64,000 nucleotides of DNA, taken from Thermoproteota archaeon (GTDB lineage: Archaea > Thermoproteota > Thermoprotei > Thermoproteales > Thermocladiaceae). Each line of letters starts with the position of its first letter. The stretch's first letter is position 1. Below the pieces are notes generated by a model that was not told the origin of the DNA, searched no databases, and saw only the letters and a program-made list of their open reading frames with translations. The translations under genes and the position numbers were made by a program. Location: positions 17,049 to 81,048 of the forward strand of contig JAADDN010000168.1 of assembly GCA_013153895.1 (NCBI GenBank), written 5' to 3'. Of this stretch, positions 7,928-52,086 are shown piece after piece.

Positions 7928-7929
7928 GG

Positions 7930-8643: not shown

Positions 8644-9085
8644 GGTTTATCACCATACACATATAATCATAATATGTTTCCCTTTTCCTGTTCATCATAT
8701 ATGTAGCATAGTCTATCCTGCAGTTAATATCCATGTTACCATAATCATACCTCTTTCCCCTCCATAGAATAGTCATTCTCGGGTTCCCAATAACTTTCAT
8801 GCTCATGTTCATCATGTTCTCTAGATCTGTTATAGGTACAACACCATTATCTATGAAACATCTTGCCTCTATTGTGAAGTCCAGCTCTCTCCTGCCTGTC
8901 CTAAATATCTTGGAGAGAATGTTCTCTATCTCTTCGATGTTCTCTGCTGTCTCTATCATATCTTCTTCTCCAGATAATATCGATATTGTATAACTCTGCC
9001 TACCATTCAACATGTTACACATGTTTGAAAACTTTCTCAGAAGCTCACTGACCTCCCTATACTTTGGATGTAATCTATCGGTCAT
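8636..9085 (-). CDS. Hypothetical protein (P4), paralog of 63537-63953
   Basis: ATGA stop/start overlap with the upstream gene. Shared KRYDYG motif and matching length with 63537-63953. Confidence 0.8.
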   Translation of the reverse strand: MTDRLHPKYREVSELLRKFSNMCNMLNGRQSYTISILSGEEDMIETAENIEEIENILSKIFRTGRRELDFTIEARCFIDNGVVPITDLENMMNMSMKVIGNPRMTILWRGKRYDYGNMDINCRIDYATYMMNRKRETYYDYMCMVINHE

Positions 9086-9423
9086 GACTCTCCCTCGACT
9101 ATTTTTCCTGGAACTATTACTAGTCTATACTTATCTGTATCATCTATAATGAATATATATCTAATAAAGTTGCAATGTTCTTCTAATGGTAGCCTATTAC
9201 TATAATATACTATTACTGGCTTCTCCTCTCCTTTCATATAGATTTCTAATGGTATTCTATCAATTTTTAAACTGTTTTTAGATATGTAAGCTCCATCTAG
9301 GTTCTTCCTGTTTTTAAAATTGTTAGATACTATACATGTATTTCCCTGTCTCTCTCCTCCTAATAATGTACATAGTTGTTCTATGTCCAGTCTGTCTCCA
9401 TCTATCCTCTCTCGAGCTATCAT
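9082..9423 (-). CDS. Hypothetical protein (P3), paralog of 63226-63540
   Basis: ATGA overlaps on both sides. IEQLCTLLGGERQGNTCIVSNNF compares with LEELCNMFGGEYRDGMCIIKNF. Confidence 0.8.
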   Translation of the reverse strand: MIARERIDGDRLDIEQLCTLLGGERQGNTCIVSNNFKNRKNLDGAYISKNSLKIDRIPLEIYMKGEEKPVIVYYSNRLPLEEHCNFIRYIFIIDDTDKYRLVIVPGKIVEGES

Positions 9424-9755
9424 ATGATTATGATTCTGCTCTTCTCCTTATATACTGCTACCCTCCTAGCCAGTCCCCTAGCTCTATATGCTACTGTTCC
9501 TGCCTCTCCTCTTCCAAGTATGCCCATCTCTATGGTCTCTACATCTCTTAGATGTGCCTCCTCTACCTCTCCATGTACATGTTCCTCTCCTATTCTTCTA
9601 AGCTCTATCCTGTTAAGTATTGTTCTATTAGGCTTATAGTAGAGGTCTAATACTGTCTCTATATCATTGTTGAAATATGCTATACAGTAACTACCTGTCT
9701 CTACATATTTTCCACCATATTTATCTACTAGTCTTCTAAGCTGTTCACAGTTCAT
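9420..9755 (-). CDS. Hypothetical protein (P2), paralog of 62897-63229
   Basis: ATGA overlaps. MNCEQLRRLVDKYGGKYVETGSYCIAYF compares with MNCNVLRTLAEKLSGKFFENESACVVYF. Confidence 0.8.
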   Translation of the reverse strand: MNCEQLRRLVDKYGGKYVETGSYCIAYFNNDIETVLDLYYKPNRTILNRIELRRIGEEHVHGEVEEAHLRDVETIEMGILGRGEAGTVAYRARGLARRVAVYKEKSRIIII

Positions 9756-10054
9756 ATCTCCTCACATACTAGCTCCAGTATGAGTCTACCGTTTCTACTT
9801 GTTTTAACTATTCTACACTTCATATCTGCCCTGACATCGCAGAGCTTAGGCAGTAGATATGTTCTGAATAGTGCTTCACATATATGTGCTACTCCTCTAG
9901 GCATTGTACATGTTTCTCCCTGTTCTAGACATCCTCTACATATCAGCTCTCCATCTATTATATCAACTTCCCTACACTTCTCTCTCAACATTCTAACAAT
10001 ATCCTCTCGATACCTCTCCTCGCTAAGTCTAGCTATCTTCTCGAAAATACTCAT
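9752..10054 (-). CDS. Hypothetical Cys-rich protein (P1)
   Basis: ATGA overlaps with both neighbours. It holds the same position in the cassette as 62544-62900. Confidence 0.75.
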   Translation of the reverse strand: MSIFEKIARLSEERYREDIVRMLREKCREVDIIDGELICRGCLEQGETCTMPRGVAHICEALFRTYLLPKLCDVRADMKCRIVKTSRNGRLILELVCEEI

Positions 10055-10515
10055 CTCTTCACCTCTCTAAGATACTCCTCGACAGCTTTCCTAGTAGCCA
10101 TGTTTACAGCCTCCATTCCTGAGAAGACACAGTCATATAGGTTAGAGAGGTTCTTCTCACGTAGAGCAATGTGACAGTAATTTACTAGATCTTTCAGCCT
10201 GCTCTTCCTCTTCTCAAGCTCAGTGTTTACACATGTCATGAACCTGTTAAAGTCTCTATGTTTCTTATACTCGCTGTAACAGTTTATAAAGATATCATTA
10301 ATATTTTTATACTCATTATCTAACTGTTTTGCTACACATTTCTTAAATTCTTTAGGGTCAGAAATATTTAAACATGAGGAGACTATGCTCACAAGATGTT
10401 TGCCTGGGTCAAACTTTGATGTGTCTAAATATTCTTCTACTGGCTTCACACGGCTTATTATGGTTATGAACCTGTCAGCTATGTTACTCATCGATAGATC
10501 TATATACTCTATCAA
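10051..10515 (-). CDS. Hypothetical protein (P0), paralog of 57148-57597
   Basis: The track start is TTG at 10515, and an in-frame ATG at 10491 is the alternative start. HRDFNRFMTCV matches THDFNKFTACV, and the C-termini are similar. Confidence 0.75.
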   Translation of the reverse strand: MIEYIDLSMSNIADRFITIISRVKPVEEYLDTSKFDPGKHLVSIVSSCLNISDPKEFKKCVAKQLDNEYKNINDIFINCYSEYKKHRDFNRFMTCVNTELEKRKSRLKDLVNYCHIALREKNLSNLYDCVFSGMEAVNMATRKAVEEYLREVKR

Positions 10516-10655: not shown

Positions 10656-11516
10656 CTAGCATATTTCAATGCTTAGATTCTTATCAAGCAGATCAAAGTT
10701 CTTGTACACCATGTTTCCACATATGCCTCTTCTAATAGCCTCCTCCATGATCTTCATATGGTTTCCCACACGCAGCTTCTTTGCAAGTACAGCAACTAGT
10801 AGATAGGTTAGGCACTGTATTGACTGGTAGTGGTACTCTCTTACTGTCCTGTTCTTTAATAGTGTAATAGCTATCTTATATATTAATGGTCTAAATTGTT
10901 CATCTACATATTTAACTGCTTCTTCAAGTATTGGAACATACATTATCTCTTCTTTTATATATTTTGTAAACATTTTCTTTGCTTCTGGAAAATATTTATG
11001 ATCTACCCTTATCTTCTTCAGAATATATGTCATAGTCTTATAATGTATTCTAATCTTCTTACTATACTGTACATATAGTATCATCATTATCTTAACAAGT
11101 TTAAGCGTTCTCGTAGGGTCTCTAGTCTCATGTAGGAGACTTTCAACTATTTTTCTAAACGTTTCTAGTGGAATGTCAGATGTCTCTACCCTAATGTTCA
11201 GCATCTCGTTATATGCTCTCAGTGTTGATTCTAGTGCTGTGTCAAGTATTCTCCTTACCTCGTCTTCAAATGTTCTTATTCCTATCTTCTTCTTCTCCTC
11301 TATACTTATCCTGGATCCTATCATTGTTACCTTTGTTCTCTGTATATGCATACGTGCTAGATATTGTTCTGGTGTATATGCTCTTGGTTCTGGATGTTCT
11401 ATGTCTATTACTCTCTCCTGTATCACTGTTCCACAGTTTGTACATATGTATTCTCCTCTCTCTATGTCTAGTACTATTCTATCTGATCCACAGTATGGGC
11501 AGCGTTCTACTGCCAT
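10656..11516 (-). CDS. tfb: Divergent transcription factor B (TFIIB-like)
   Basis: N-terminal zinc ribbon CPYCGS...x...CTNCG, followed by IDIEHPEPRAY (B-reader/linker position) and about 200 aa of helical, cyclin-fold-sized region. GGAG lies 5 nt upstream of the ATG. Confidence 0.75.
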   Translation of the reverse strand: MAVERCPYCGSDRIVLDIERGEYICTNCGTVIQERVIDIEHPEPRAYTPEQYLARMHIQRTKVTMIGSRISIEEKKKIGIRTFEDEVRRILDTALESTLRAYNEMLNIRVETSDIPLETFRKIVESLLHETRDPTRTLKLVKIMMILYVQYSKKIRIHYKTMTYILKKIRVDHKYFPEAKKMFTKYIKEEIMYVPILEEAVKYVDEQFRPLIYKIAITLLKNRTVREYHYQSIQCLTYLLVAVLAKKLRVGNHMKIMEEAIRRGICGNMVYKNFDLLDKNLSIEIC

Positions 11517-17315: not shown

Positions 17316-18477
17316 TTATGACCACCTTCAAAGCATTAACAAGAATGTCAGGGCTATTTACAACAAGAGCAGACACCTTCCTAGCAAGAGTACTAGTACA
17401 GTAACATGGAACGAACCTCCCCGTAAGAGCATTACCAAGATATATCGGGCATATTCCCTTATAAGCAAAACTGTATGTACCCCTGAGAACATTATACCTA
17501 AGATTGTTCTCGGGAGGAGTCCTACAGATATACTCCTCCCCATTTACAGTATATCTCAAACGTTGAACAATACTAAACAGCTGATCCTCACTTAACCCAA
17601 CAATCTTCAAAGCACCTAGAAACTCAACCTCAAAAACCGTATGTAATCCACGTGGTATAGATGTGGGATATGTTATAGATGGAAGCTCTATAGGTCTATT
17701 ATTTATGAGACATGTAACATAGTACCTCGTACATTCACCACATCCAGCAGCAGAAAAACAGAGCTGAGCATAGACTAGAGCCCTCTCAAGAGGGAGAGAA
17801 GTCACAATCCTCCTGACAGGACCAGGAGCCTCAGCAAGCTCTACCCTGCCCTCGATCCGTTCAACATATGTACCATAGCACACATCCTCTACAGCACGTA
17901 CAAGCATTTTCAAACGATCATAAACATCTCTAAGACACTTCTCAACACTTTCAATACCAGTCCTACTAACCTTAACATAGTGAAGCACCTCCCTACCACC
18001 ATCATACTCTATGACCAGCCTAGACGGATAAGTAATAACATAACCAAAAGTCTTATTATCAAAAACCCCTTTAACACCAGTAAACTTCCTAGCCAGATCA
18101 AGCTCATCCCTCTCCAATCTCGTGACAATATGGTACCCACCTGTAGCAGTAACCTCAACAAAAACCTCATCAGGACTAAGAAACCTCCATATCAGATCAA
18201 TAGGAACCCTAGCATCAAGATCAAGAATAAATAATCTAGAAGGAGCACCAGCAACACCAAAAGCAGAACAACCAGCACAGACACGCCTAACAGCCATCTC
18301 AGAAACATCACTATACAAGACAGCACAATCATAACAGTACCTCAACCCCCTAGGAACAAGAGGACACTTCGCAACCGCAACAGCCTCCTCACGACTACAC
18401 CCCCTACCAAAACCCCTAACAGGAACCAGCATGAAACCCTTATTAAACAGCTCCCCCACAAAATCACAGAGACCCAT
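17308..18477 (-). CDS. Archaeo-eukaryotic primase superfamily prim-pol
   Basis: LFILDLDARV (DxD) and VEVTATGGYHIV (sGGxH) in the order expected for the Prim-Pol domain. Its 3' end overlaps the helicase start by 8 nt. Confidence 0.75.
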   Translation of the reverse strand: MGLCDFVGELFNKGFMLVPVRGFGRGCSREEAVAVAKCPLVPRGLRYCYDCAVLYSDVSEMAVRRVCAGCSAFGVAGAPSRLFILDLDARVPIDLIWRFLSPDEVFVEVTATGGYHIVTRLERDELDLARKFTGVKGVFDNKTFGYVITYPSRLVIEYDGGREVLHYVKVSRTGIESVEKCLRDVYDRLKMLVRAVEDVCYGTYVERIEGRVELAEAPGPVRRIVTSLPLERALVYAQLCFSAAGCGECTRYYVTCLINNRPIELPSITYPTSIPRGLHTVFEVEFLGALKIVGLSEDQLFSIVQRLRYTVNGEEYICRTPPENNLRYNVLRGTYSFAYKGICPIYLGNALTGRFVPCYCTSTLARKVSALVVNSPDILVNALKVVINA

Positions 18478-19812
18478 CAGAAACAGAAGAAGAGAAAAAA
18501 TAAAAACAAAACACTAAACACCAACACACAGTAATAACCCAAAAAACAACAGAAAAATACACCAAGGAACAAAACAACAAACCAAAACAAAACACCACAA
18601 AAATGCGAGTAATACCCACAAAATAAAAACACACCAAGGAACAAAACCGAGTCACACTCCACATTCTCCCCCAGTTCACAGACTAAACCACCCACCAAAA
18701 CTATACACTCTTTCCACACAACACCAAAACTTGTGAACTCCCAACCTCCCTACTTCGCGTAAGTATCTCCCCCGCTACATTAAATACGAGTGCGCCCCCG
18801 CCTTCACGGGTTGTGGAAAATCTCGCAAAATAACATCTCTCTACATGTCAAAAATAAACGATTAAAAACCAATTATGATAATGCTCACACAGACTTAAAA
18901 TAACAATAAAACACAAAAACATACAACCTTAAAAACCCAAAAGAAAAAACATCAACACACAACAAAAAACAATAAGACACAACAGAACAAGATACTTCAT
19001 ACCCCACATTTAGATACCAATAACATGAAAACGAGACCTTCACACCATATATTCTACAAGGCTACCATAAACTCCACAAGAAAACAAACAACTCCACAAG
19101 AAACATCATTACAAAAATCAATTAGCCCTAATTGACCAATGCATTACTCATCAATTAGAGATGCATTATGGTAGAATTGAAATATTAATGCATTCTCAAT
19201 TGACCACCAATTAACCCCCCAGCCGAGAATACATTAACTCTCAATTGAAGCTAATGCATGAAGAATAGAAACAAAATCACAGAAAGTACATGACAAGACC
19301 AAACACCCTAAAAAGAAAACAACACTCCCAAACCAGAACACCTGTGAAAAACATATACGTAATACCACACAAAAATACAAAAACAAACTTAATTAAACAG
19401 CAAAATAATAAATTAAAAAGAGAACGAAACAACACACAGAGGTTTTCTAAAGACAAACCATACACAACTACACAGAAAACAGCAGAAAACAAGTAAAACC
19501 AATAGAATAAATATACCAATAAACCATAAACTCTAGAAAACAAACAGCACTAGAAAACTAATAACATTGATAAAACATGTATAAAAACAATCAAAACAAT
19601 ACACCACACCAGACAGAATAACCATACAATAGACCACGTCGAAGATTATAACTCAAAGTAATACTACAATTTAAGAATAGAAAAACATAAAACATCATAA
19701 AAATACATTAAAACAATAATAACCATATATAGGTAATAAAGATCAAAATAAGACATAAATAAAGTAAAAAGATATAAAAGAAGACTAACATACATGAAAG
19801 AACATATGTACC
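18478..19812. other. Non-coding arm, extremely A+C-rich on the + strand, with short internal repeats and ATGCAT/CAATTG motifs
   Basis: Positions 18481-18540 contain 51/60 A+C (counted). ACACCAAGGAACAAAAC occurs twice, and AACTCCACAAGAAA occurs twice in tandem near 19069-19104. AATGCAT occurs near 19138, 19187 and 19253. Confidence 0.7.
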
Positions 19813-20277
19813 TTATTGACGGCTTTTCAATATATTTATCCATGGATTATCCATTAAGTCCATTAGAATGTTATTATCATGTTTCTTCTCTGTATTACTC
19901 TCATTTTTATACTCTATCTTTTCTATACGTTCTCTAATGTATGATTTATCTATTTTTGATGAAAGTTCTTCAATTTTTCTTTCAAGAATTTCAATCCTAT
20001 TTTGTAAACTTTTAACTATAGTATACATATCTATACTAGACCTATCTTCTACATACATTGCAGTATTATTCACATCTCTACATGATAGTATTTTTCTGAG
20101 GTATGAAGTATCTAGCCTAAATGCTATATCTCTCATAGTTTCTAAACCTAGATGATCTATAAGCAGTTTCACTATTTCCGCACCAAGTTCTATGATTCTA
20201 CTCTGAGAAACATGCAACATATCTGCTAACTGTTCTATAAGTTTTTTAGTATGCTCTCTTACTGTTAGTGTAGGCAT
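19813..20277 (-). CDS. Ribbon-helix-helix (CopG/Arc-like) DNA-binding protein with a coiled-coil C-terminal half
   Basis: MPTLTVREHTKKLIEQLADMLHVSQSRIIELGAEIVKLL fits a strand-helix-helix pattern. It is the only normal-composition ORF inside the 3.6-kb gap. Confidence 0.65.
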   Translation of the reverse strand: MPTLTVREHTKKLIEQLADMLHVSQSRIIELGAEIVKLLIDHLGLETMRDIAFRLDTSYLRKILSCRDVNNTAMYVEDRSSIDMYTIVKSLQNRIEILERKIEELSSKIDKSYIRERIEKIEYKNESNTEKKHDNNILMDLMDNPWINILKSRQ

Positions 20278-21082
20278 GTATATTATAGATATATGAGATA
20301 TATAAACATTCTTGATTAATCATGAAAGATGAGATTGATAATATTCATAAAATATATCTAAATTATATTTATCATGTAGACGTGTCGTCGTTCAACGTAT
20401 TACCGTACTAATATGATTCTATGTTTCTATTTCTAGAATATTGTTACATGTTTGATATAGTAGTTATAGATGGTTTTTGAAGGTTTATCTATATTATTTA
20501 GAATGTATATAAATGATGTGACTGACCAGGTAACAGAGTTGGTAGGGGTCTAGGACTACCTCATAGGATGGAATTGTTCTTCATTTTTTAATTGTTAATC
20601 TATGTATCTATATGTACTATAGGTTACATTTATTTTGTCTAGTTTTTAGACGTGGTTAAAATATTTATTTTCATGTATATACTTGTTACCGTGTTTTGTA
20701 TTATTTTCAGTGTTTTTAGAACGTTCTTATCAGTGTATAATATCTATTATCTATGCTATGTTATATGTATTATGATTATCTGTGTATATTATTCTCTTAT
20801 TATAACATGTTTGGGAGCTAATTGAAACTAATTGAAGTGAAGTTGGGTATTTTTCATGTTTTATATGTTCTATGTTTTTGTGTGTTGTTTTATGTGTTTT
20901 GTTGTTGTTTGATTGGTTTTTCTTTGGTCTTGGTTCTGTTTCTGGTCTGTGCTTGTTTTTGTGTTTTTGTCTTTTAGGATGGCATTTAATTGGACATGCA
21001 TTATATGTATTTTTATGTTGTTTTATGTACTTAATTAAACGTTAATTGATTTCTTGTTCCTGTTCTGTGATTTATTTTTGAT

Positions 21083-21121
21083 GGTTTATGTATTTTTGTG
21101 ATATACATTAGGGGTCAATTA
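21083..21121 (+). repeat. Iteron-like module, copy 1
   Basis: GGTTTATGTATTTTTGTGATATACATTAGGGGTCAATTA. Confidence 0.7.
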
Positions 21122-21243
21122 ACGTATGATTAAGTGTGTTAGTATTTATAAAAATACATTTAATGCATGCTCAATTAGGTCACTGGGTCTGAGTCTACGT
21201 GTCCGTTGGCTGTGCATTATGGTGTTAATATGTGATTATTATT

Positions 21244-21274
21244 GTATTTTTGTGAGATACATTAGGGGTTAATT
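21244..21274 (+). repeat. Iteron-like module, copy 2
   Basis: GTATTTTTGTGAGATACATTAGGGGTTAATT matches 21090-21120 at 29 of 31 positions (counted). Confidence 0.7.
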
Positions 21275-21315
21275 GGTCATGGTCCTATGTGGTAGTTGGG
21301 TGTGTTCTGATTGTT

Positions 21316-21334
21316 CAATTAGTCCCTAATGTAC
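21316..21334 (-). repeat. Inverted copy of the TACATTAGGG-N-CAATT core
   Basis: The reverse complement reads GTACATTAGGGACTAATTG. Another inverted core, CCTAATGTA, lies at 21507-21515. Confidence 0.6.
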
Positions 21335-21847
21335 TTGATAAAAGGTTATTGATGTATGTTTTTGGTGACCATAATGTATGGCTAATTATGTGTATGTTTT
21401 TGATCTTTTGTTATCATGTTTATTCGTTTAATGCATCTGCGGTTAGCTGGACTCTAGTGCAGCTAGTTATTTTATGTGTATTTATAACTTTTTATGATGG
21501 GGACGACCTAATGTATCCATGATGTGGTATTTTTCTCAAGTACATTGATATAATATAGGTTATAGATGTTTGTTATTGGTGTTTAATGTTTAGATGTTAG
21601 GTGATATGGAGTTGAAATGGGGGTTATAGAATTTCTATGTATTATTATACTGTTATGGTTATTAATGTTTTCTATTGTTTTTTATGTTTCTTAATTACTG
21701 GGTTTTCACAAGTTTTCTAGTTTGTGAATTGTTTCAGAATTTAAAATGTATAGTTATGTTGTTTTTTATATTTTTATGATATATGTCTGATATGTTTGTA
21801 TGTGGTTTATTGTTTTTGGTATCATGTTTTTGCTCTGTTTTTGTGTT

Positions 21848-21880
21848 GGTTTATGTATTTTTGGCAGGTACATTAGGGAG
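21848..21880 (+). repeat. Iteron-like module, copy 3 (more diverged)
   Basis: GGTTTATGTATTTTTGGCAGGTACATTAGGGAG. The first 15 nt are identical to 21083-21097. Confidence 0.6.
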
Positions 21881-22133
21881 TTTTGGAACAATAGTATTTG
21901 TTATTGTGTTTTTATGTTTTTGTTTGGTGTTTTGTGTTGTTTTTCGTGTTTGTGGTTTATTGTTTTTCATTGTTGTTTTGTTTTCTTTTCTATGTTTTGT
22001 TTCTCGGTTTTATGTCAATGTACTTCAGATTTTTGTTAGTGTTCTTGTGCTTCTAATGTGTTGGGGATCTGGCTGCAGGTAGTGCGGCTGTGCTGTATGT
22101 TCCTATTATTAATCTTGTTAGTTAGATAGTTCT

Positions 22134-22640: not shown

Positions 22641-23001
22641 GAGATATACTACTATAACAGTTGAACGTGAGGTGAAGGAGAAGCTTGAGGAGATTATACG
22701 GGAAGCTGTCGGCGAGGTCTCATGGAACGAGCTGTTTAGGAAGATGGTGAGCAATAGAACGCTTACATTATCCTATATTAGGAAGCTGTATGCAGGCATA
22801 GTAGAGGAGGATCTTCTAAAGATAATGGTAAACATAGTAGAACTGTTATATATATCAATGAGGAAGAATGGACAGTTAAAAGATAAGGAAACTAGAATAC
22901 TACTATATTTAACGGTTAGAAATATTAGAGAGAAATTGAAGGAGCATGGTATGGAGGATGAACGGGTAGAGAGAATATATGAGGAGCTTACAGGAAGCTA
23001 A
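22633..23001 (+). CDS. Hypothetical protein, possibly with an RHH-like N-terminus
   Basis: ATG overlaps the end of the dUTPase gene. TTITVEREVKEKLEEIIRE has a strand-helix pattern. Confidence 0.6.
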   Translation: MSRRYTTITVEREVKEKLEEIIREAVGEVSWNELFRKMVSNRTLTLSYIRKLYAGIVEEDLLKIMVNIVELLYISMRKNGQLKDKETRILLYLTVRNIREKLKEHGMEDERVERIYEELTGS

Positions 23002-23309
23002 TCACTATAGAACATTGGTCTAATCTTCTCACCGATCTCAACATCTTTAACATGTCTCTCAACTACTATAAAGCTCCTAGACTCCTCATCATATATAGCT
23101 ACGAACCTCGTAGGATGAAGCTCATGAGAGATAAATGCAGCAGCCCAGGGAACCCTAGTAACTATACAGTATCCCCTGTTAAGCGGTAGCTGTCTAAGCT
23201 CTCTCTCAAGATACTCGAAGACTTCCCTAGTAGGCTGTAGCTCTCTATCATTAACCTCTATAACTGTACATGGTTCTGCTGGTATTATCCTGAGAAGGTT
23301 CCTCCTCAT
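22998..23309 (-). CDS. Divergent Csx3-like protein (second copy)
   Basis: VTRVPWAAAFISHELHPTRFVAIYDEESRSFIVVERH aligns with the ISGRGPxWL...FVAVYDPR...VVV core of Csx3. It is the last gene of the operon with 23351-23641. Confidence 0.55.
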   Translation of the reverse strand: MRRNLLRIIPAEPCTVIEVNDRELQPTREVFEYLERELRQLPLNRGYCIVTRVPWAAAFISHELHPTRFVAIYDEESRSFIVVERHVKDVEIGEKIRPMFYSD

Positions 23310-23350
23310 TGAAGAAAGAGGTGTGGAGGAGACTGAGAAATCTTACCCTC

Positions 23351-23641
23351 CTATTCTAGCTTGAACATCTGTCCTCTCATTGGTCCTGAAGTTACTATAC
23401 AGGCATTCATTCTCGGCTCATATGTTGCAACTATGTCACCCTCCTTAGCAAGCTCTATGCTGAGAGCAGAGTATAGCCATACTGGTCCTCTCCCTGATAT
23501 GCATACTGGCTTCTCGCTCTTTATCTCAGGCATTGACTGTATCACCTCATTAAGCTCTGATGGCTCTAGTATTCCACCCTCTATCTCGAACTTCAGTAGT
23601 AGAACATTCTTCTTGTCCTCGACCTCCCATCTAACTGGCAT
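23351..23641 (-). CDS. csx3: Csx3 (Crn3-type cyclic tetra-adenylate ring nuclease) homolog
   Basis: 96 aa. KFEIE, CISGRGPVWLYSAL and VATYEPRMNACIV are collinear with A. fulgidus Csx3 as I recall it (HFEIE, ISGRGPIWLHCFL, VAVYDPRLGAVVV). Confidence 0.75.
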   Translation of the reverse strand: MPVRWEVEDKKNVLLLKFEIEGGILEPSELNEVIQSMPEIKSEKPVCISGRGPVWLYSALSIELAKEGDIVATYEPRMNACIVTSGPMRGQMFKLE

Positions 23642-23666
23642 ATGTACATGTACTATGATTCTCTTA

Positions 23667-24305
23667 TTAAGAATTATCTCTGTTTCTCATCTTCTCCTCA
23701 TCATATACGAACATTACTATCCTCATTGTCAGCCTGTTAACAGCATCTTTAAGAGGTAGTGGTGGACTAGGAGCATTCTCTCTTGTGAGACCAGTAAGAA
23801 TACATGTACCTGTCTCAAAGTCTACTCTCGGCTCTCCCTCTAGAGCTGACTCGCATATAGCTACTATATCTACGTTAGGAGTCCTCGATTTTATCTGGTT
23901 AACCCATCCCATCACACAGCTCTCAAAGTCATCTCTCCTGCATAGCACTATGACGCCATCAACATTTCTAAGAATCTTCTCGTTCTCAGCTGTTACTCTT
24001 ATAGGAGGCTTTCCTCCTCCTATATCTACTATAACAATATCAATATTATTATTCTTTCTAAGACCCTCCAATGATCTGACAATCCATTCAAGCTTCTTCT
24101 CAACATTCTGTCTAGATATCTCTTTCAACCTAGTCCTAAGCTCCTCTCTAAGAGACTCTAAGTACCAGGGAGGAGTAGGACTATATAGCTCAGCATCTTG
24201 AAACATTGTTCTTATACCTGACTCTGCAAGTGTACGATATATTAAATGTGATAGAACGCTCTTACCAGTATTGGGATCACCTACAACACCTATAATCCTA
24301 GCCAT
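23667..24305 (-). CDS. P-loop NTPase (SIMIBI-like), possibly a Clp1/Grc3-type polynucleotide kinase
   Basis: Walker A VVGDPNTGKSV and Walker B-like VIVDIGGG. The kinase assignment is inferred only from resemblance to the GxxDxGKS...DxGQ pattern. Confidence 0.7.
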   Translation of the reverse strand: MARIIGVVGDPNTGKSVLSHLIYRTLAESGIRTMFQDAELYSPTPPWYLESLREELRTRLKEISRQNVEKKLEWIVRSLEGLRKNNNIDIVIVDIGGGKPPIRVTAENEKILRNVDGVIVLCRRDDFESCVMGWVNQIKSRTPNVDIVAICESALEGEPRVDFETGTCILTGLTRENAPSPPLPLKDAVNRLTMRIVMFVYDEEKMRNRDNS

Positions 24306-24339: not shown

Positions 24340-25476
24340 ATGAGCTTCTACCCTACAGAGCAGGAGAAGGAGAGCATACGTGTAATGATAGATGGACTGA
24401 TAGATCTGTTGAGAAGAGAGCTGGAGAGGAGAGGAGTACGGTTCTATAAGATAGTTCCAGGAGGCTCAACAGCACAGGGAACCTTCCTACATGGTGATCA
24501 TGATATAGATATTTTCATAGTAACATCAGAGCCAGACAGAGCAATCAGAGTAGTCAGAGAGCTGTTTCCAAGAGGAGTCGAGAAGAAGGGAGAGCTAGAG
24601 ATATGGAACACACATGTAGACGATTATAATATTGATATAGTAGCAGTTAATCCAGAAACCGTAGAAAGATGGTTCACACTTAAACATACTGAGATCTATT
24701 CAAAGATGAGTAATGAACAGAAAAGAATAGCGATAGCACTGAAGGCACTGTTCAAAACATGGTGCGCATATGGAGCAGAGAACGGGGGAATAAGTGGAGT
24801 AGCAGTTGAGGAGCTCGTGAGAAGATTCACAGAGCCAGGAGATACCGTAGACAGAGGAATAGTCAAAGTATGTGAACAGATAGTCATACATGAAGAACCA
24901 TTCTGGCTGCAGGACCCAGCAGCAGAGAGACATGGAATACCTAGGAACCTCCTAGCATCAGTAGTAGAAGAAAAGTGGAGCCTACTACAGAAAGCGTGTA
25001 TAGAATATTTCAACACACGTCAGATACCATATACACCACCAGGAGCGGAGAAATATAGATTCATAAGAGAAAGCGAGGGATGGAAAACAATACAGCTAGA
25101 ATCAACAGGAAACAAGCACCTAGACTTCCACAAGACCAGAAGCATCTGCATAACATACTGTAACAAGCTGAGAAACAGTGAAAAAGATGTACAAGAATGC
25201 ATCTGCGACTCATATAGCGATGGAAAGAAGGTGATAGTAGCAGTAAAAGTACCAGAACAGTTACCACCATATAGGACAGTCTGCATAGAGCCTTGGAAGA
25301 TAGGTAGAGAAGCAGTAGAAAATTTCATAGAAAAGCATCCAGATTATTATATAGATAATTATGGTAGAATATGTACAACAGTACCAAGAAAAATAACAAG
25401 ACCATTCGAATATATTAAACAAAACATAGAGAAAGAATGGGAAAGATATCTAAAAGAGAAGACAAGACACAGCTAG
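24340..25476 (+). CDS. cca: Class I (archaeal-type) CCA-adding tRNA nucleotidyltransferase homolog
   Basis: GGSTAQGTFLHGDHDIDIFIV (GS...DxD), IDIVAV, ERWFTLKHTE, ALKALFKTWCAYGAENGGISGVAVEELV and FWLQDPAAERHGIPRNL are collinear with A. fulgidus CCA enzyme motifs. Confidence 0.75.
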   Translation: MSFYPTEQEKESIRVMIDGLIDLLRRELERRGVRFYKIVPGGSTAQGTFLHGDHDIDIFIVTSEPDRAIRVVRELFPRGVEKKGELEIWNTHVDDYNIDIVAVNPETVERWFTLKHTEIYSKMSNEQKRIAIALKALFKTWCAYGAENGGISGVAVEELVRRFTEPGDTVDRGIVKVCEQIVIHEEPFWLQDPAAERHGIPRNLLASVVEEKWSLLQKACIEYFNTRQIPYTPPGAEKYRFIRESEGWKTIQLESTGNKHLDFHKTRSICITYCNKLRNSEKDVQECICDSYSDGKKVIVAVKVPEQLPPYRTVCIEPWKIGREAVENFIEKHPDYYIDNYGRICTTVPRKITRPFEYIKQNIEKEWERYLKEKTRHS

Positions 25477-25650: not shown

Positions 25651-26934
25651 TTAGAATATGCTACACGACCCACCTAGCGGACAGATATCAGGTACATAGA
25701 GCCTACTATCAAACATGTTGAAGTGATATAAGTGACCACTCTCTAACAGTCTCTTACATAGGTTTCTTCTAGTTATTTTCGATAGATAACATATGTCCCA
25801 GCTCGCGAAGTCACCACCAACATACTTAAACGATAATTTCTCCAATAGTGGCTTAAGGAACCAGAAGTATACCTTTTCTGGCGGTACCTGTGCTAGCTCT
25901 GGTATTGTCGGCTTATACATTAATGGCAGTATCGATAGTCTAGACTCTATATAGCTTGCAGAAGCATAGTCGAGACCCATAGTAATATCTAGAACATCAT
26001 CATAAGCCGTATCTCTATCTTTCCAACATGCTAGAACCATCAGACACGTCTTAACGTCAAGATCATTAAGTAGCTTAAACGTGTCAGTAATATACTTCAA
26101 GTCATGTGCAACATTTATCAGACCCATATTCTGCATCCACTTTGGTCTAAATGACCATCCAATACATATCTTACTCATATCTACATCATTGTTCTCTAAT
26201 CTGCTAACCAACTCAAACGGCATTGATGTTGAGATCGTGTAGTATGTATATACGTCCATTATGTTTCTACCACGTCTATCATAGAACTCAATTATGTAAT
26301 CACAATACTTGTTTAGATCAACACTGTATCCACTTGGTAGATCCATGCCACGTATAATATATCTTAGATCAGTTACGCGGTATAGGTCATCTATTAAATC
26401 ATTAAGCACTAGATATGGCTCACACGACCCACCAAATGATATCGAGAGATGATAAGTCGGTGGAAGCCCCCTACTATTCTTCTCTCTAATAGTCCTATAA
26501 AGAAGCTTAAGCAGTAGATTCCTTACGGCAGATACGGTCCCAGACTTAACACATGTTACATATCTCGTCCTAGAACCATAGCCTGGCGACTGAGCATAAC
26601 AGAATCTGCATCCTATTGGGCAAGTTCTCTTGTATGATACTACGAGCATTATAGCACTATCATAATCATTATCCTCAATATCTAGGTAAAAATACTCAAA
26701 ACCATTTCCACCTAATGAAGCAATTGGCAGATCACTATCCTGCCTATAATCATCTATAGTTGTAATTATTTTCTCACTACCTCTAACATATATATCATAT
26801 AGCAATCTATCAGCATCTCGTATATTTAAGACATCATCAGCAGATGAACCTCCATAACTATTATCACTATACTTTATACTCAATCTTAATCTAGAACAGT
26901 TGAACTGTATTTGAGAAAGAACCAACTTCCTCAT
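25651..26934 (-). CDS. Radical SAM enzyme with an N-terminal extension of about 100 aa and a C-terminal Cys cluster
   Basis: CPIGCRFCYAQ (CxxxCxxC) at about residue 104. Four Cys in the last 50 aa or so (DICY...NLCK...DICPLGGSCSIF). Confidence 0.85.
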   Translation of the reverse strand: MRKLVLSQIQFNCSRLRLSIKYSDNSYGGSSADDVLNIRDADRLLYDIYVRGSEKIITTIDDYRQDSDLPIASLGGNGFEYFYLDIEDNDYDSAIMLVVSYKRTCPIGCRFCYAQSPGYGSRTRYVTCVKSGTVSAVRNLLLKLLYRTIREKNSRGLPPTYHLSISFGGSCEPYLVLNDLIDDLYRVTDLRYIIRGMDLPSGYSVDLNKYCDYIIEFYDRRGRNIMDVYTYYTISTSMPFELVSRLENNDVDMSKICIGWSFRPKWMQNMGLINVAHDLKYITDTFKLLNDLDVKTCLMVLACWKDRDTAYDDVLDITMGLDYASASYIESRLSILPLMYKPTIPELAQVPPEKVYFWFLKPLLEKLSFKYVGGDFASWDICYLSKITRRNLCKRLLESGHLYHFNMFDSRLYVPDICPLGGSCSIF

Positions 26935-27069
26935 TAAATATATTGGTAGCTAAGTAAGATAAAACCGTTAAAACAACATAACTATATAGAAAAACAGGTA
27001 ATAGCACATGAAAATAGATAACACAGGAAAAAGGAAGAAGAAAATAGGAGAGAAAGAATAGAAAGAAAA

Positions 27070-27243
27070 TTAGACTAGCCCCTGAATACACTTCTCATAA
27101 CAATCACATGCTAATTTATTTTCACAGTCACATACCTCCCAGCACATTAGGTCTTCAAGTTCCTCCTCATCAATATCATTAGAAAGATTATACTTCCTAA
27201 CAATATTTTCAATTAATTGATCATTAATATTTTTTATTGTCAT
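27070..27243 (-). CDS. Small Cys-rich acidic peptide (57 aa). Candidate RiPP precursor or zinc-binding miniprotein.
   Basis: Below the ORF-track length cutoff. Translated base by base: MTIKNINDQLIENIVRKYNLSNDIDEEELEDLMCWEVCDCENKLACDCYEKCIQGLV. TATA-like TTAAATATT is centred about 25 nt upstream. Confidence 0.5.
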   Translation of the reverse strand: MTIKNINDQLIENIVRKYNLSNDIDEEELEDLMCWEVCDCENKLACDCYEKCIQGLV

Positions 27244-27263
27244 GTGACTGAACTATCTTAACT

Positions 27264-27272
27264 AATATTTAA
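27264..27272 (-). promoter_or_regulatory. TATA-like box for the 57-aa ORF
   Basis: The reverse strand reads TTAAATATT, centred about 25 nt from the ATG at 27243. Confidence 0.45.
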
Positions 27273-27369
27273 CCTTTATACCATTCACATAATATATATT
27301 ATGTATTATTCACGTTTTCTAGAAAACATGGAGAAGAGAAAAAGAAGGAAAACAATGCTCTGTATGCTA

Positions 27370-28206
27370 TTACTTGAGTTCTCTCTTCACATGTTTTAGC
27401 ATCTGTCGAACTTTCTCTCTATTCGGCAGCTCATAGTTATGTTTTCTGCATTCTTCTTCTATGTATCTCCATACGTTATTTATCGAAATAGTCTCAATCC
27501 TTCTACCCTTACTTGTTAATTCCATTATTGCTGTCCTAAGAGCATTAAGAATCTCATGGTCAGGTAAGACATCTCTCTTCACCTCTTCAATTTTCTTTCC
27601 TTCTAGAGCATCTAGTAACAGTTTCCACTCGTTCCTGTTCTCCCACTTAATCTTAAGACCAATGAACCTCCTCTGATAAGCTCTCCTCAGACCAGGATAT
27701 CTTGAACTTCCAGTAAATCCATATAACTTGACTATTACTCCCTCTACCTTTCTACCAAGTTCATTCAGTTTCTTAACTGCGAAGTCTATTGCCTGTCTTA
27801 GATCATTAAATGTCCAGTATTCTACCACCTTAAGATCATCCCTTCTAAGATCATCAACATATCTCTCAAGAGGCTCTAGTGTATAGATATCAAATACGCG
27901 ATAATCATAATCACCTTCCCATCCCTCTCTAAAACCTGCTGGAGAGTTCTTTAGTCCACCAAACTCAAAATAGAAATCGTATCTAGACTTCAATATTTCT
28001 GGAAATCTTTCCCTGATAATTTTCATTAAGTTGTCTGGTATTGGATTTAGATTACGAGTATATAACATATCGCCAAATTTTAGAATATTCGCACCATCAT
28101 ACTTCGGCTCAACATATATAACATCAAGCCTTGACTCATTGTTAAGTACTGAATAGATTACCTTTACAAACTCCTTCGGGTTTAAAAGTTCAGGATACTT
28201 TCTCAT
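27370..28206 (-). CDS. ATP-dependent RNA ligase-like nucleotidyltransferase (minimal, no OB domain)
   Basis: Motif I EPKYDGANI (KxDG), III FYFEFGG, IIIa YRVFDIY, IV EGVIVKL, V IGLKIKW. The helical C-terminal 70 aa replace a DNA-ligase OB fold. Confidence 0.8.
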   Translation of the reverse strand: MRKYPELLNPKEFVKVIYSVLNNESRLDVIYVEPKYDGANILKFGDMLYTRNLNPIPDNLMKIIRERFPEILKSRYDFYFEFGGLKNSPAGFREGWEGDYDYRVFDIYTLEPLERYVDDLRRDDLKVVEYWTFNDLRQAIDFAVKKLNELGRKVEGVIVKLYGFTGSSRYPGLRRAYQRRFIGLKIKWENRNEWKLLLDALEGKKIEEVKRDVLPDHEILNALRTAIMELTSKGRRIETISINNVWRYIEEECRKHNYELPNREKVRQMLKHVKRELK

Positions 28207-49830: not shown

Positions 49831-50112
49831 ATGGATAAGAGAGATATAGTCCTAAATGATATATCTGAAAGACTTGTAAGCTATATTCTAGCTAACTGGA
49901 GAAGATATGCATATCTAGACAATTCTAACTGTATAAACATGCCGCTTACCAGGATAGCTAAAGAAGTTGTTAATGAGAGAGTTGACAGAGCAACACTTGG
50001 ACAGGCATATTCAAAGGTGAGGGAAAGATTCAGGAAGATGGGTTATAGGGTAGTACTGAAGAGGAGGTGGGCTAAGAATGGTTCTACCTGGATAGAGATA
50101 TGTAGGGACTAG
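49831..50112 (+). CDS. Small basic protein, possibly winged-helix
   Basis: ATG start, 93 aa. LTRIAKEVVNERVDRATLGQAYSKVRERFRKMGY looks HTH-like. Confidence 0.65.
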   Translation: MDKRDIVLNDISERLVSYILANWRRYAYLDNSNCINMPLTRIAKEVVNERVDRATLGQAYSKVRERFRKMGYRVVLKRRWAKNGSTWIEICRD

Positions 50113-51998: not shown

Positions 51999-52055
51999 GT
52001 GTTTATAATAGGTTATGCGATATTAAAGCGGGATCTATGATGGTTAAGTGAGTAG

Positions 52056-52063: not shown

Positions 52064-52086
52064 CCCTAACACTCATCTACGGTAAC

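What the first reader, a model, noticed from the sequence alone, without database searches (positions are those of the whole stretch)
25651..27243. Hidden 57-aa six-cysteine peptide upstream of a radical SAM enzyme (RiPP-like pair)
Seen in sequence: an ORF below the track cutoff (27070-27243, -) has its own TATA-like box at about -25. It encodes an acidic leader-like half (…DIDEEELEDL) and a core MCWEVCDCENKLACDCYEKCIQGLV with six Cys and an internal repeat (CDCENK / CDCYEK). The 427-aa radical SAM gene starts 136 nt downstream on the same strand. Its CxxxCxxC motif (CPIGCRFC) begins only at about residue 104, leaving room for a peptide-recognition domain. It also has four extra Cys in its last 50 aa or so, which could bind an auxiliary cluster. 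Established knowledge: sactipeptide and ranthipeptide (for example SCIFF) loci pair a short Cys-rich precursor with a radical SAM maturase carrying an N-terminal RRE and C-terminal auxiliary FeS clusters. Inference: this is a thioether-type RiPP system in an archaeal mobile replicon. The alternatives are that the peptide is just a small zinc-binding protein, or that the enzyme is a COG1533-type DNA-repair radical SAM (CxxGCxYCYA-like motif).
Basis: partly seen in the sequence, partly recalled or inferred. Interest (0 to 1): 0.7.

Follow-up and report, generated by a model that had tools for sequence, protein, structure and literature searches.

The report
Cys-rich mini-protein beside orphan radical-SAM-like gene
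A real, conserved 57-residue six-cysteine protein lies next to a very rare radical-SAM-like enzyme on an uncultured archaeal mobile element, but the two genes are inherited and moved separately, so they are probably not a peptide-antibiotic (RiPP) pair.

Summary
ORF 27070-27243(-) encodes an acidic 57-aa protein with six Cys. ORF 25651-26934(-) encodes a 427-aa protein with CPIGCRFC at residues 105-112 and four C-terminal Cys. The small gene is real (dN/dS 0.07-0.18) and is already annotated as hypothetical in NCBI.

The RiPP reading is disfavoured.
- A recombination breakpoint lies between the genes: the enzyme is 98.7% identical to a sister contig, the peptide only 78%.
- In related contigs the enzyme gene, with its own promoter-like box, sits 1.5 kb away behind three other genes, or is missing from the site.
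- The 29%-identical homologue has no such peptide nearby.
- No SPASM/twitch, RRE or SCIFF signal was found.

The enzyme matches no curated family and has only three lineages among about 15 billion proteins. Profile-profile comparison puts its core closest to the spore-photoproduct-lyase/PA0069 (COG1533) radical SAM clade: probability 70-82%, against 1-6% for five other radical SAM enzymes compared as single sequences.

Best reading: two independent accessory genes, a small metal-binding protein and a divergent, probably nucleic-acid-directed radical SAM enzyme. Substrates are unknown and structure prediction failed.

The parts
27070..27243 (-). Gene for a 57-aa acidic protein (NPA70762.1). The N-terminal half is predicted helical and acidic. 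The C-terminal half carries six invariant Cys (C-x3-C-x-C-x5-C-x-C-x3-C).
   Evidence: ORF and sequence. Conserved in L001, L002, L007, L008, L009 and L010 with dN/dS 0.07-0.18. NCBI accession. No Pfam, NCBIfam, PADLOC or PDB match.
27262..27280 (-). TATA-like A/T box (TATAAAGGTTAAATATTAG) at -37 to -19 of the small gene. Inferred archaeal promoter.
   Evidence: Read directly. Function is inferred. The ligase-peptide intergenic region is only 36% identical to L002, so the box is not shown to be conserved.
27022..27069 (-). Pyrimidine/T-run tract just after the small gene's stop codon (TTTTCTTTCTATTCTTTCTCTCCTATTTTCTTCTTCCTTTTTCC). Inferred archaeal oligo-T termination signal separating the two genes.
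   Evidence: Sequence. Termination at oligo-T is established knowledge for archaea; not tested here. This intergenic region is 58% identical to L002 with 32 gap columns.
26954..26966 (-). Promoter-like box GGTTTTATCTTAC at about -32 to -20 of the enzyme ATG. It travels with the enzyme gene.
   Evidence: TTTATCT-x-AC is invariant upstream of the enzyme in the window, L002 and L010, and also in L001, where the gene sits in a different genomic position.
25651..26934 (-). Gene for the 427-aa radical-SAM-like protein (NPA70761.1). It behaves as a single-gene cassette.
   Evidence: ORF. Only three relative lineages among about 15 billion proteins. Cassette borders (window 26910-25670 = L001 2574-3811) and absence from the site in L007.
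26650..26934 (-). N-terminal domain, residues 1-95, acidic (pI 4.3), of unknown fold. The conserved LSxIQFNCSRLRL and LLYDIYVRG motifs are here. A truncated 85-aa copy of this part alone, ending at a stop codon, occurs in L020.
   Evidence: No PqqD/RRE hit. Only one helix and at most two or three short strands predicted, in low-confidence models.
26599..26622 (-). CPIGCRFC, residues 105-112. Putative ligands of the radical SAM [4Fe-4S] cluster (C105, C109, C112), with an aromatic residue before the third Cys.
   Evidence: Invariant in the 29%-identical P0003. Every radical SAM enzyme tested by hhalign aligned its own cluster motif to this site.
26416..26433 (-). GGSCEP, residues 168-173, at the end of a predicted beta-strand. 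Candidate counterpart of the SAM-binding 'GGE' motif. Aligns with G-x-x-T-D-P-Y-Q-P of PA0069/SPL-clade enzymes.
   Evidence: G168, G169, C171 and P173 are invariant. hhalign alignment.
25663..25791 (-). C-terminal module with four conserved Cys (C382, C393, C418, C424, ending in CPLGGxC). Possible auxiliary Fe-S or Zn site. It is not a SPASM or twitch motif.
   Evidence: Conserved in P0003. No CxxCx5Cx3C, and no CxxC outside the radical SAM motif. No SPASM family hit.

Best explanation
These are two independent accessory genes of an uncultured Thermoproteota virus- or plasmid-like element, not a precursor-maturase operon.

Gene 1 encodes a small, very acidic protein. Its six invariant, mirror-symmetric Cys most likely hold a metal centre, either Zn or a small Fe-S or Cu-thiolate cluster. 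The metal assignment is inferred.

Gene 2 encodes a highly diverged radical SAM enzyme.
- C105, C109 and C112 would bind a [4Fe-4S] cluster that reductively cleaves SAM to a 5'-deoxyadenosyl radical. This is inferred from the motif, its conservation and profile similarity.
- Its core is closest to the spore-photoproduct-lyase/PA0069/Rv2578c (COG1533) clade. The characterised members of that clade act on DNA: SPL repairs a thymine lesion, and phage M6 gp53 isomerises a DNA base adduct.
- I therefore expect the substrate to be nucleic acid (repair or modification) rather than the neighbouring peptide.
- Family-specific N-terminal (about 95 aa) and four-Cys C-terminal modules presumably supply substrate binding and a second metal site.

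Each gene appears to have its own promoter-like box, and a T-run tract lies between them.
For: Separate inheritance:
- Window versus L002: enzyme 98.7% nucleotide identity, peptide 78%, flanking intergenic regions 36-58%. A recombination breakpoint therefore lies near 26,900.
- In L001, which is otherwise syntenic, the enzyme gene lies behind a reverse-strand 203-aa gene and two Csx3 genes, between Csx3b and the 121-aa/DCD genes. The peptide stays beside the ligase-like gene.
- In L007 the peptide is followed directly by the nucleotidyltransferase gene. The junction is window 27048|25467, and the enzyme is absent from the site.
- The relocated copy keeps the same TTTATCT-x-AC box at about -30.
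- The loci of the 29%-identical P0003 (L003-L005) and the truncated copy L020 have no Cys-rich peptide.

Enzyme family:
- hhalign of the family alignment against a verified PA0069/Rv2578c/mobile-pair-B/SPL-clade alignment gave probability 70-82% and score 43-48.
- Up to 156 collinear columns align, from the Cys motif through the region matched to beta5 of the PA0069 template (reference set verified).
- Controls: 60 column shuffles reached at most score 24.8, and the next-best of the 88 window ORFs scored 27.2.
- As single sequences, PflA, NrdG, AslB, BioB and MoaA scored 20-28 (probability 1-6%). COG1533 singles scored 30-35 and M6 gp53 scored 39.5 (50%).
- The enzyme gave only three weak PHROG hits. 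The one with a nucleic-acid annotation is phrog_9252 'DNA repair photolyase', the gp53 annotation (E=0.4). A stronger but unrelated hit was to a tail assembly chaperone family (E=0.004).
- Published precedent: a viral SPL-like radical SAM with the motif CTVGCAFC at residue 125 modifies DNA (PMC8989533).

Neighbourhood: the flanking genes are nucleic-acid enzymes, namely a ligase-like protein, a CCA-adding-like nucleotidyltransferase, a DCD-like protein, helicases and Csx3.
Against: - No curated HMM (Pfam Radical_SAM, any NCBIfam radical SAM model, PADLOC) detects the enzyme, even at E<=1-10.
- An HMM built from the COG1533-type set gives it only 8 bits, tied with an unrelated window ORF.
- The hhalign probability is moderate, and much of the score comes from the Cys motif.
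- Two AlphaFold runs failed (pLDDT 32 and 36). Foldseek returned only generic TIM-barrel and radical SAM hits with E>1e-3.
- All peptide-bearing contigs belong to one closely related element family, so both the adjacency and its loss carry limited weight. In L001 the two genes are still only 1.5 kb apart.
- In L010 the peptide stays with the enzyme while an insertion separates it from the ligase-like gene.
- No substrate, metal content or transcript data exist.
Confidence: 0.5

Rival explanations
1. RiPP pair. The 57-aa product is a precursor with an acidic leader and a Cys-rich core. The 427-aa radical SAM enzyme installs thioether (sacti- or ranthipeptide-like) crosslinks, using its N-terminal domain to bind the leader and its C-terminal Cys for an auxiliary cluster.
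For: - Same-strand adjacency with a 135-nt gap in the window, L002, L009 and L010.
- In L010 the adjacency survives an upstream insertion.
- Six invariant Cys and a conserved acidic N-half.
- A roughly 100-aa extension precedes the Cys motif, and four conserved C-terminal Cys are present.
- Among weak Foldseek hits to a poor model are anSME and SkfB.
Against: - There is a breakpoint between the genes, and the two have different divergence.
- The enzyme is relocated without the peptide in L001 and is absent from the site in L007.
- No peptide lies near P0003 or L020.
- No SPASM/twitch motif or HMM hit, no PqqD/RRE hit, and no SCIFF or any RiPP-family hit for either protein.
- hhalign to the SPASM enzyme AslB gives 3.8%, against 70-82% for the SPL/PA0069 clade.
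- The enzyme has its own promoter-like box, and a T-run tract follows the peptide gene.
Confidence: 0.12
2. The large protein is not a radical SAM enzyme. CxxxCxxC and the other Cys bind structural metal in an unrelated alpha/beta protein, and the small protein is an unrelated Zn-binding or anti-defence factor.
For: No Radical_SAM HMM hit at any permissive threshold. HMMER against a COG1533-type profile gives only 8 bits. Structure models have very low confidence.
Against: - The motif has the canonical aromatic residue before the third Cys and is invariant at 29% identity.
- A GG-x-C-[ED]-P motif lies at the expected spacing.
- Alternating beta/alpha elements are predicted across residues 95-335.
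- hhalign is well above the shuffle controls and the other window ORFs.
- All eight radical SAM templates align their cluster motif to this site.
Confidence: 0.15
3. The small Cys6 protein is a functional partner of the enzyme but not its substrate. For example, it could be a mini Fe-S electron donor or a regulatory subunit for the radical SAM reaction.
For: Both genes stay within the same few kb in every contig long enough to show them. Six Cys could ligate an Fe-S cluster. Radical SAM enzymes need a one-electron donor (established knowledge).
Against: - The same linkage arguments as for the RiPP rival apply.
- The distant homologue lacks such a partner.
- CxC spacing is unlike ferredoxin CxxCxxC motifs (read from the sequence).
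- No homology to any Fe-S protein.
Confidence: 0.08
4. The enzyme is a divergent activase (NrdG-like) for the element's own anaerobic ribonucleotide reductase NrdD.
For: NrdD at 50109-51998(-) has an intact Zn-ribbon and the RIVGYY glycyl-radical motif. The 427-aa protein is the only CxxxCxxC protein in the 64-kb window. No radical SAM gene was called in the 14.8 kb of the contig seen beyond the window.
Against: - The two genes are 23 kb apart and are not linked in any related contig.
- hhalign to E. coli NrdG gives 1.3-2% and to PflA 1.2-2.8%, covering the Cys motif only.
- Glycyl-radical activases carry the motif near their N-terminus and are 150-250 aa.
- The part of P0003's contig that was seen shows no NrdD.
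- The first 12 kb of the source contig were not seen and could hold a canonical NrdG, or the host could supply one.
Confidence: 0.05

Closest known systems
Spore photoproduct lyase / PA0069 / Rv2578c / 'radical SAM mobile pair protein B' clade (COG1533; NF033668, NF038135, TIGR04470, TIGR04070; Pfam PF04055 + PF20903)
   Same: - Cluster motif of the type C-x-x-G-C-x-[FY]-C-[FY]-A (CPIGCRFCYA here, CEHGCIYCFA in PA0069).
- A small-residue-[TC]-[DE]-P motif about 58 residues later (GGSCEPY versus GTNTDPYQP).
- Collinear hhalign alignment from the Cys motif through the region matched to beta5 of the template, at 70-82% probability.
- Members of the clade also occur on mobile elements.
   Different: - None of the clade's curated HMMs, nor Pfam Radical_SAM, detects the window protein, whereas they score the reference set at 1e-15 to 1e-176.
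- There is a roughly 30-residue insertion between beta2 and beta3.
- The protein has a unique acidic N-terminal domain and a four-Cys C-terminal module that the clade lacks.
Pseudomonas phage M6 gp53, an SPL-like radical SAM isomerase acting on hypermodified thymidine in DNA (phrog_9252 'DNA repair photolyase'; PMC8989533)
   Same: - Virus-encoded.
- A long N-terminal extension precedes a near-identical cluster motif (CTVGCAFC at residue 125 versus CPIGCRFC at 105).
- It gave the best single-sequence hhalign score of all templates: 39.5, probability 50%, 33% identity over 54 columns.
- Weak direct PHROG hit (E=0.4).
   Different: - Similarity does not extend beyond about 55 residues. A profile of five gp53 relatives gives only 20% probability.
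- gp53 genes sit beside a PLP enzyme, an aGPT-Pplase or a P-loop nucleotide kinase. No such cluster was recognised among the window ORFs that were scanned.
SCIFF/ranthipeptide and sactipeptide systems (precursor TIGR03973; SPASM/twitch radical SAM maturases such as CteB, AlbA, SkfB, PapB)
   Same: A short peptide with six Cys in its C-terminal half and an acidic N-half lies next to a CxxxCxxC protein that has extra C-terminal Cys.
   Different: - No SPASM/twitch Cys pattern (no CxxC outside the radical SAM motif), no SPASM/twitch or RRE HMM hit, and no SCIFF hit.
- Adjacency is not conserved.
- Core similarity points to another radical SAM clade.
Small Cys-rich metal-binding proteins (metallothionein-like CxC clusters, Zn2Cys6-type binuclear sites)
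   Same: Six Cys within 19 residues, including two CxC pairs, in a symmetric arrangement suited to a shared metal cluster. This resemblance is recalled from general knowledge and was not tested.
   Different: No sequence match to any such family or solved structure. The protein has a long conserved acidic helical N-half. Metal content is unknown.

Membership tests
Radical SAM superfamily | CxxxCx(aromatic)C cluster-binding motif after beta1 | tested here: met
   CPIGCRFC at residues 105-112, invariant in the 29%-identical P0003. Chance expectation is 0.015 in this protein.
Radical SAM superfamily | Recognition by the superfamily profile (Pfam PF04055) or any curated radical SAM model | tested here: not met
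   No hit at E<=1 for the window protein, nor at E<=10 for P0002 and P0003. Reference COG1533 proteins score 1e-15 to 1e-21.
Radical SAM superfamily | Partial (beta/alpha)6 TIM-barrel fold with a GGE-type SAM-binding motif | tested here: inconclusive
   The GGSCEP motif is conserved. Alternating beta/alpha elements are predicted, but the models have pLDDT 32-36. Foldseek gives only weak TIM-barrel and radical SAM hits.
Radical SAM superfamily | [4Fe-4S]-dependent reductive cleavage of SAM | not testable with these tools
   Needs purified protein, EPR and a 5'-deoxyadenosine assay.
SPL / PA0069 / Rv2578c clade (COG1533) | Scores above the curated cut-off of NF033668, NF038135, TIGR04470 or TIGR04070 | tested here: not met
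   No NCBIfam hit at E<=1. An HMM of the reference set gives 8 bits.
SPL / PA0069 / Rv2578c clade (COG1533) | Profile-profile similarity across the catalytic core, including the GCxxGCxYCYA and TDPYQP motifs | tested here: inconclusive
   hhalign probability 70-82% over 78-156 columns. Controls are far lower. The motifs are only partly matched.
SPASM/twitch RiPP maturases (sacti-/ranthipeptide synthases) | C-terminal SPASM (CxxCx5Cx3C plus flanking Cys) or twitch auxiliary-cluster domain | tested here: not met
   The regex finds no such motif and no CxxC outside residues 109-112. No SPASM/twitch family hit in Pfam or NCBIfam. hhalign to AslB gives 3.8%, at the radical SAM motif only.
SPASM/twitch RiPP maturases (sacti-/ranthipeptide synthases) | N-terminal RRE (PqqD-like winged helix) | tested here: inconclusive
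   No PqqD hit or other Pfam/NCBIfam hit in residues 1-95. The low-confidence models show one helix and at most two or three short strands, not a beta3-alpha3 fold. HHpred-level detection was not available.
SPASM/twitch RiPP maturases (sacti-/ranthipeptide synthases) | Precursor gene conserved next to the maturase across homologues | tested here: not met
   Separated in L001, enzyme absent from the site in L007, and no peptide near P0003 or L020.
SCIFF (six-Cys-in-forty-five) precursor family | Match to TIGR03973 | tested here: not met
   No NCBIfam hit for the 57-aa protein at E<=1.
Glycyl-radical enzyme activases (NrdG/PflA) | Sequence or profile similarity to NrdG or PflA beyond the cluster motif | tested here: not met
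   hhalign 1.2-2.8%, covering 30-33 columns around the Cys motif only.
M6 gp53-like DNA-modifying radical SAM isomerases (phrog_9252) | Similarity over the full enzyme, and linkage to thymidine-hypermodification genes | tested here: inconclusive
   phrog_9252 E=0.4. hhalign 50% to M6 gp53 and 20% to a gp53 profile, covering the motif region only. No hypermodification genes were recognised among the window ORFs that were scanned.

The most novel reading that the evidence does not exclude
The pair could still be a virus-borne archaeal RiPP system of a new type. A six-Cys peptide would be crosslinked by a radical SAM enzyme that has neither a SPASM/twitch domain nor a recognisable RRE, and whose core derives from the SPL/PA0069 clade. 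It would be the first RiPP maturase from that clade that I know of, and I know of no RiPP system described on a Thermoproteota mobile element. The loose linkage would then reflect ordinary gene shuffling within one element, since both genes remain on it in L001.
Probability: 0.1. Interest if true: 0.8.

Novelty: new variant of a known kind. Interest (0 to 1): 0.35.

Why it matters
If the favoured reading holds, this is an extremely rare, strongly diverged branch of the DNA-directed (SPL/PA0069-like) radical SAM enzymes, carried as a mobile single-gene cassette by an archaeal virus- or plasmid-like element. It has only three lineages among about 15 billion proteins. The cassette sits among ligase-like, CCA-adding-like and Csx3 genes, in what may be an anti-defence or nucleic-acid-repair region.

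The only characterised viral enzyme of this clade that I found (phage M6 gp53) installs a DNA hypermodification. An archaeal counterpart would extend radical chemistry on nucleic acids to archaeal mobile elements.

For genome mining, the case is a caution. A Cys-rich small ORF next to a CxxxCxxC protein is not enough to call a RiPP locus. Comparison with a handful of sister contigs was sufficient to show the two genes are inherited separately.

Tried and rejected
Searches that found nothing useful:
- Direct homology for the enzyme. Pfam, NCBIfam, PADLOC and PHROGs gave nothing above noise apart from phrog_9252 at E=0.4.
- PDB by phmmer and by family profile: nothing relevant.
- tblastn against phages and plasmids, even at E<=10: only noise.
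- megablast of the region against phages: no match.
- Searches for more relatives. The exhaustive HMMER search gave three lineages.
- Scans of viral and GTDB genome contigs with the enzyme alignment: none.
- Scans for the peptide: no viral contig, and the metagenome and protein-database searches returned only the known sister contigs.
- PDB search with the peptide profile: nothing.
- Rfam and tRNA scans of the window: nothing.

Structure:
- Two AlphaFold2 runs, with 3 and 4 sequences, gave pLDDT 32 and 36.
- Foldseek on the second model gave only weak, generic TIM-barrel and radical SAM hits. I do not use it as evidence.

Ideas rejected:
- NrdG-like activase. Considered because the window has NrdD but no other CxxxCxxC protein. 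Rejected as the main reading on hhalign (1-2%), architecture and lack of linkage.
- Membership of the M6 gp53 family. Similarity is confined to about 55 residues, and a gp53 family profile scored lower than the PA0069-clade profile.

Limits of what was done:
- The second genome-contig scan, with the COG1533 alignment, returned only close alphaproteobacterial PA0069 proteins. It added little diversity to the profile.
- Two look-ups of ORFs near the window's left end were not on record.
- The first 12 kb of the source contig remain unseen.
Full report
**1. What is there**

ORF 27070-27243(-) encodes MTIKNINDQLIENIVRKYNLSNDIDEEELEDLMCWEVCDCENKLACDCYEKCIQGLV.
- It has pI 4.05 and six Cys spaced C-x3-C-x-C-x5-C-x-C-x3-C.
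- A TATA-like A/T box lies at -37 to -19 of its ATG.
- A run of T-tracts follows its stop codon.

ORF 25651-26934(-) starts 135 nt downstream on the same strand.
- It encodes 427 aa with CPIGCRFC at residues 105-112.
- Cys 382, 393, 418 and 424 lie near the C-terminus.

The window is part of a 90,945-bp contig of a Crenarchaeota/Thermoproteota MAG. Both proteins are already deposited as hypothetical proteins, NPA70762.1 and NPA70761.1. The small ORF is therefore not hidden in public annotation.

**2. The small ORF is a real gene**

Four distinct variants occur on six related metagenomic contigs (L001, L002, L007, L008, L009, L010).
- All six Cys and most of both halves are invariant.
- Pairwise dN/dS is 0.07-0.18, with dS up to about 1.
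- High Cys density alone is not informative here, because many out-of-frame segments in this T/G-rich DNA reach it. The conservation is what counts.
- The protein matches nothing in Pfam, NCBIfam (including SCIFF), PADLOC or PDB. Its only PHROG hit is one weak match to a family of unknown function.

**3. What the large protein is**

No curated library recognises it.
- Pfam Radical_SAM, every NCBIfam radical SAM model, the SPASM/twitch models, PqqD and PADLOC gave nothing at permissive thresholds.
- PDB gave nothing, by sequence or by profile.
- An exhaustive HMMER scan of 1.84 billion cluster representatives found three lineages:
  - its own, with members at 99% and 78% identity;
  - P0003, 435 aa and 29% identical;
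  - an 85-aa truncated copy of the N-terminal part.

The alignment with P0003 keeps the following:
- C105, C109, F111, C112 and Y113;
- G168-G169-x-C171-x-P173, at the end of a predicted strand;
- a T-x-x-T-S strand;
- all four C-terminal Cys, ending in CPLGGxC.

Two AlphaFold2 runs failed, with pLDDT 32 and 36. Both predicted alternating beta/alpha elements across residues 95-335. Foldseek on the poor model gave only weak TIM-barrel and radical SAM hits, which I do not count as evidence.

To test the family I fetched real members of the COG1533-type clade from plasmids. I found them with a motif recalled from memory and then verified them.
- NCBIfam names them PA0069, Rv2578c and mobile pair B, with weaker SPL hits. 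Pfam gives Radical_SAM plus SPL.
- hhalign of the window family against this set gave probability 70-79%.
- With 18 more PA0069 proteins added, it gave 82% over 156 collinear columns, from the Cys motif through the region matched to beta5 of the template.

Controls:
- 60 column-shuffled queries reached at most score 24.8, against 43-48 for the real query.
- Among all 88 window ORFs this protein ranks first, at 38.6 against 27.2 for the next.
- As single sequences, E. coli PflA, NrdG, AslB (a SPASM enzyme), BioB and MoaA scored 20-28, or probability 1-6%.
- COG1533 members scored 30-35 as single sequences.
- The best single template was phage M6 gp53, with score 39.5, probability 50% and 33% identity over 54 columns.

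M6 gp53 is an experimentally characterised SPL-like radical SAM isomerase that acts on a thymidine adduct in DNA. Its cluster motif CTVGCAFC also sits behind a long N-terminal extension (PMC8989533). However, a profile of five gp53 relatives scored lower, at 20% and only around the motif.

HMMER with the COG1533-type profile gives the window protein only 8 bits.

My conclusion is that this is probably a radical SAM enzyme, at roughly 80%. Its core is nearest to the SPL/PA0069 clade, it falls outside every defined family, and it has private N- and C-terminal modules.

**4. Whether the two genes form a unit**

Comparison with sister contigs argues against it.

(a) Window versus L002, by nucleotide identity:

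| Segment | Identity |
|---|---|
| Enzyme gene | 98.7% |
| Everything downstream | 97.5-99.4% |
| Peptide gene | 78% |
| Intergenic regions flanking the peptide gene | 36% and 58% |

A recombination breakpoint therefore lies just upstream of the enzyme start.

(b) L001 is syntenic with the window: ligase-like gene, peptide, then later Csx3, Csx3, a 121-aa gene and DCD. The enzyme gene, however, sits between the second Csx3 gene and the 121-aa gene. That is 1.5 kb from the peptide and beyond a reverse-strand gene. The homologous segment is essentially the ORF alone, window 26910-25670.

(c) In L007 the peptide gene is followed directly by the nucleotidyltransferase gene. The junction is window 27048|25467. 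L001 shows the same junction sequence.

(d) The relocated L001 copy keeps the same TTTATCT-x-AC box about 30 nt upstream of its ATG. The gene therefore moves with its own promoter-like element.

(e) The three contigs carrying P0003, and the truncated copy in L020, have no Cys-rich small gene nearby.

One point runs the other way. In L010 an insertion separates the peptide from the ligase-like gene but leaves it next to the enzyme.

All peptide-bearing contigs are close relatives, so the linkage evidence is suggestive, not decisive.

**5. Context**

The neighbourhood consists of nucleic-acid and anti-defence genes:
- a KxDG ligase-like protein (27370-28206);
- a CCA-adding-like nucleotidyltransferase (24340-25476);
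- a P-loop protein matching the ATPase part of Csx3-AAA, plus two Csx3 genes;
- a dCTP-deaminase-like gene;
- helicases.

Elsewhere the element has a TFIIB-like gene, a class III ribonucleotide reductase, a GmrSD-like gene, a subtilase and an AAA ATPase. Just outside the window it has a resolvase and a T4 Rnl1-like RNA ligase. Most other ORFs scanned have no Pfam family, and there are no tRNA or Rfam hits. A virus- or plasmid-like element is a fair description.

**6. Mechanism proposed**

Shown by the evidence: the gene structures, the conservation, the separate inheritance of the two genes, and the motif and profile similarity.

Inferred:
- C105, C109 and C112 bind a [4Fe-4S] cluster that cleaves SAM to a 5'-deoxyadenosyl radical.
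- The substrate is nucleic acid, for lesion repair or base modification. This rests on analogy with SPL and M6 gp53 and on the gene neighbourhood.
- The four C-terminal Cys hold a second metal site.
- The small acidic protein binds metal through its six Cys and acts independently.

I hold this composite reading at about 0.5. The rivals are:

| Rival | Confidence |
|---|---|
| RiPP pair | 0.12 |
| Not a radical SAM enzyme at all | 0.15 |
| Peptide is a non-substrate partner | 0.08 |
| NrdG-like activase for the element's NrdD | 0.05 |

The activase idea arose because this is the only CxxxCxxC protein in the window. hhalign to NrdG and PflA gives only 1-3%.

**7. Verdict**

The gene is real, the enzyme is plausibly radical SAM, and the replicon is plausibly a mobile element. 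The RiPP inference is disfavoured.
- Novelty: a new, very rare variant of a known enzyme kind, plus an uncharacterised Cys6 mini-protein.
- Interest is moderate to low unless biochemistry shows either a peptide crosslink or a new nucleic-acid reaction.

Noticed in passing
window 22998-24305 (-): A split 'Csx3-AAA' module. A 212-aa P-loop protein (23667-24305) matches the ATPase part of the PADLOC Csx3-AAA models (E 1e-13). Two small Csx3 (cA4 ring-nuclease family) genes follow it (23351-23641 and 22998-23309). On a mobile element this looks like an anti-type-III-CRISPR device.
   Followed up: partly
window 24340-25476 (+): A 378-aa nucleotidyltransferase resembling archaeal CCA-adding enzyme across its whole length, but far below the family cut-off (TIGR03671, 72.6 bits against a cut-off of 281). 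In L001 this gene and the P-loop gene are replaced by an unrelated 203-aa gene.
   Followed up: partly
window 27370-28206 (-): A 278-aa protein with a KYDG nucleotidyl-transfer motif. It has weak matches to minimal ATP-dependent DNA ligases (PDB 7obn at E 0.0017, Chlorella virus ligase, phrog_114). It is the most constant neighbour of the Cys6 gene. With the CCA-adding-like enzyme, and with a T4 Rnl1-like RNA ligase just outside the window (L023 12468-13772), it hints at an RNA or tRNA repair toolkit.
   Followed up: partly
window 50109-51998 (-): A class III (anaerobic) ribonucleotide reductase NrdD with a C-terminal Zn-ribbon and an intact glycyl-radical motif (RIVGYY). No canonical NrdG activase lies in the window or in the 14.8 kb of flanking contig that could be read.
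   Followed up: partly
window 1-4763 (-) and 4803-7448 (-): The apparent ORF desert at the left end is a 2298-aa gene that runs off the window, so the ORF listing did not show it. It has faint Big_1 and CarboxypepD_reg hits. An 881-aa CarboxypepD_reg protein and a same-strand run of seven small genes (7499-10515) lie next to it. This may be a surface or structural module.
   Followed up: partly
window 18400-22100: Two divergently oriented clusters of small, very hydrophobic Cys/Phe/Val-rich ORFs flank a 154-aa gene. They give extreme and opposite GC and AT skews (GC 29-35%) and many imperfect inverted matches. This may be a membrane-protein cassette, or the ORFs may be artefacts of the composition.
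   Followed up: partly
L020 1024-1281: An 85-aa ORF that is 55% identical to the N-terminal domain of the enzyme ends at a stop codon, with no enzyme core downstream. About 1 kb of purine- and pyrimidine-tract sequence precedes it. It could be a decayed copy or a stand-alone N-domain.
   Followed up: no
window 10656-11516 (-), 52048-53268 (+), 45441-46904 (+), 48086-49795 (+); L023 11585-12349: Other recognisable genes on the element are a TFIIB-like protein (Zn-ribbon), a GmrSD_N/DUF262 protein (type IV restriction-like), a subtilase and a CDC48-like AAA ATPase. A serine recombinase (resolvase) lies just beyond the right end of the window.
   Followed up: no
L003 1-1409 / L005 2001-3165: The distant homologue P0003 is encoded divergently from a SocA_Panacea-like gene and a minimal nucleotidyltransferase, which look like a toxin-antitoxin pair. 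It lies on a contig that also carries a family B DNA polymerase-like gene, a DEAD_2-type (XPD-like) helicase, a DCD-like gene and a metallophosphoesterase. This is another mobile-element-like setting that shares the DCD and helicase theme.
   Followed up: no
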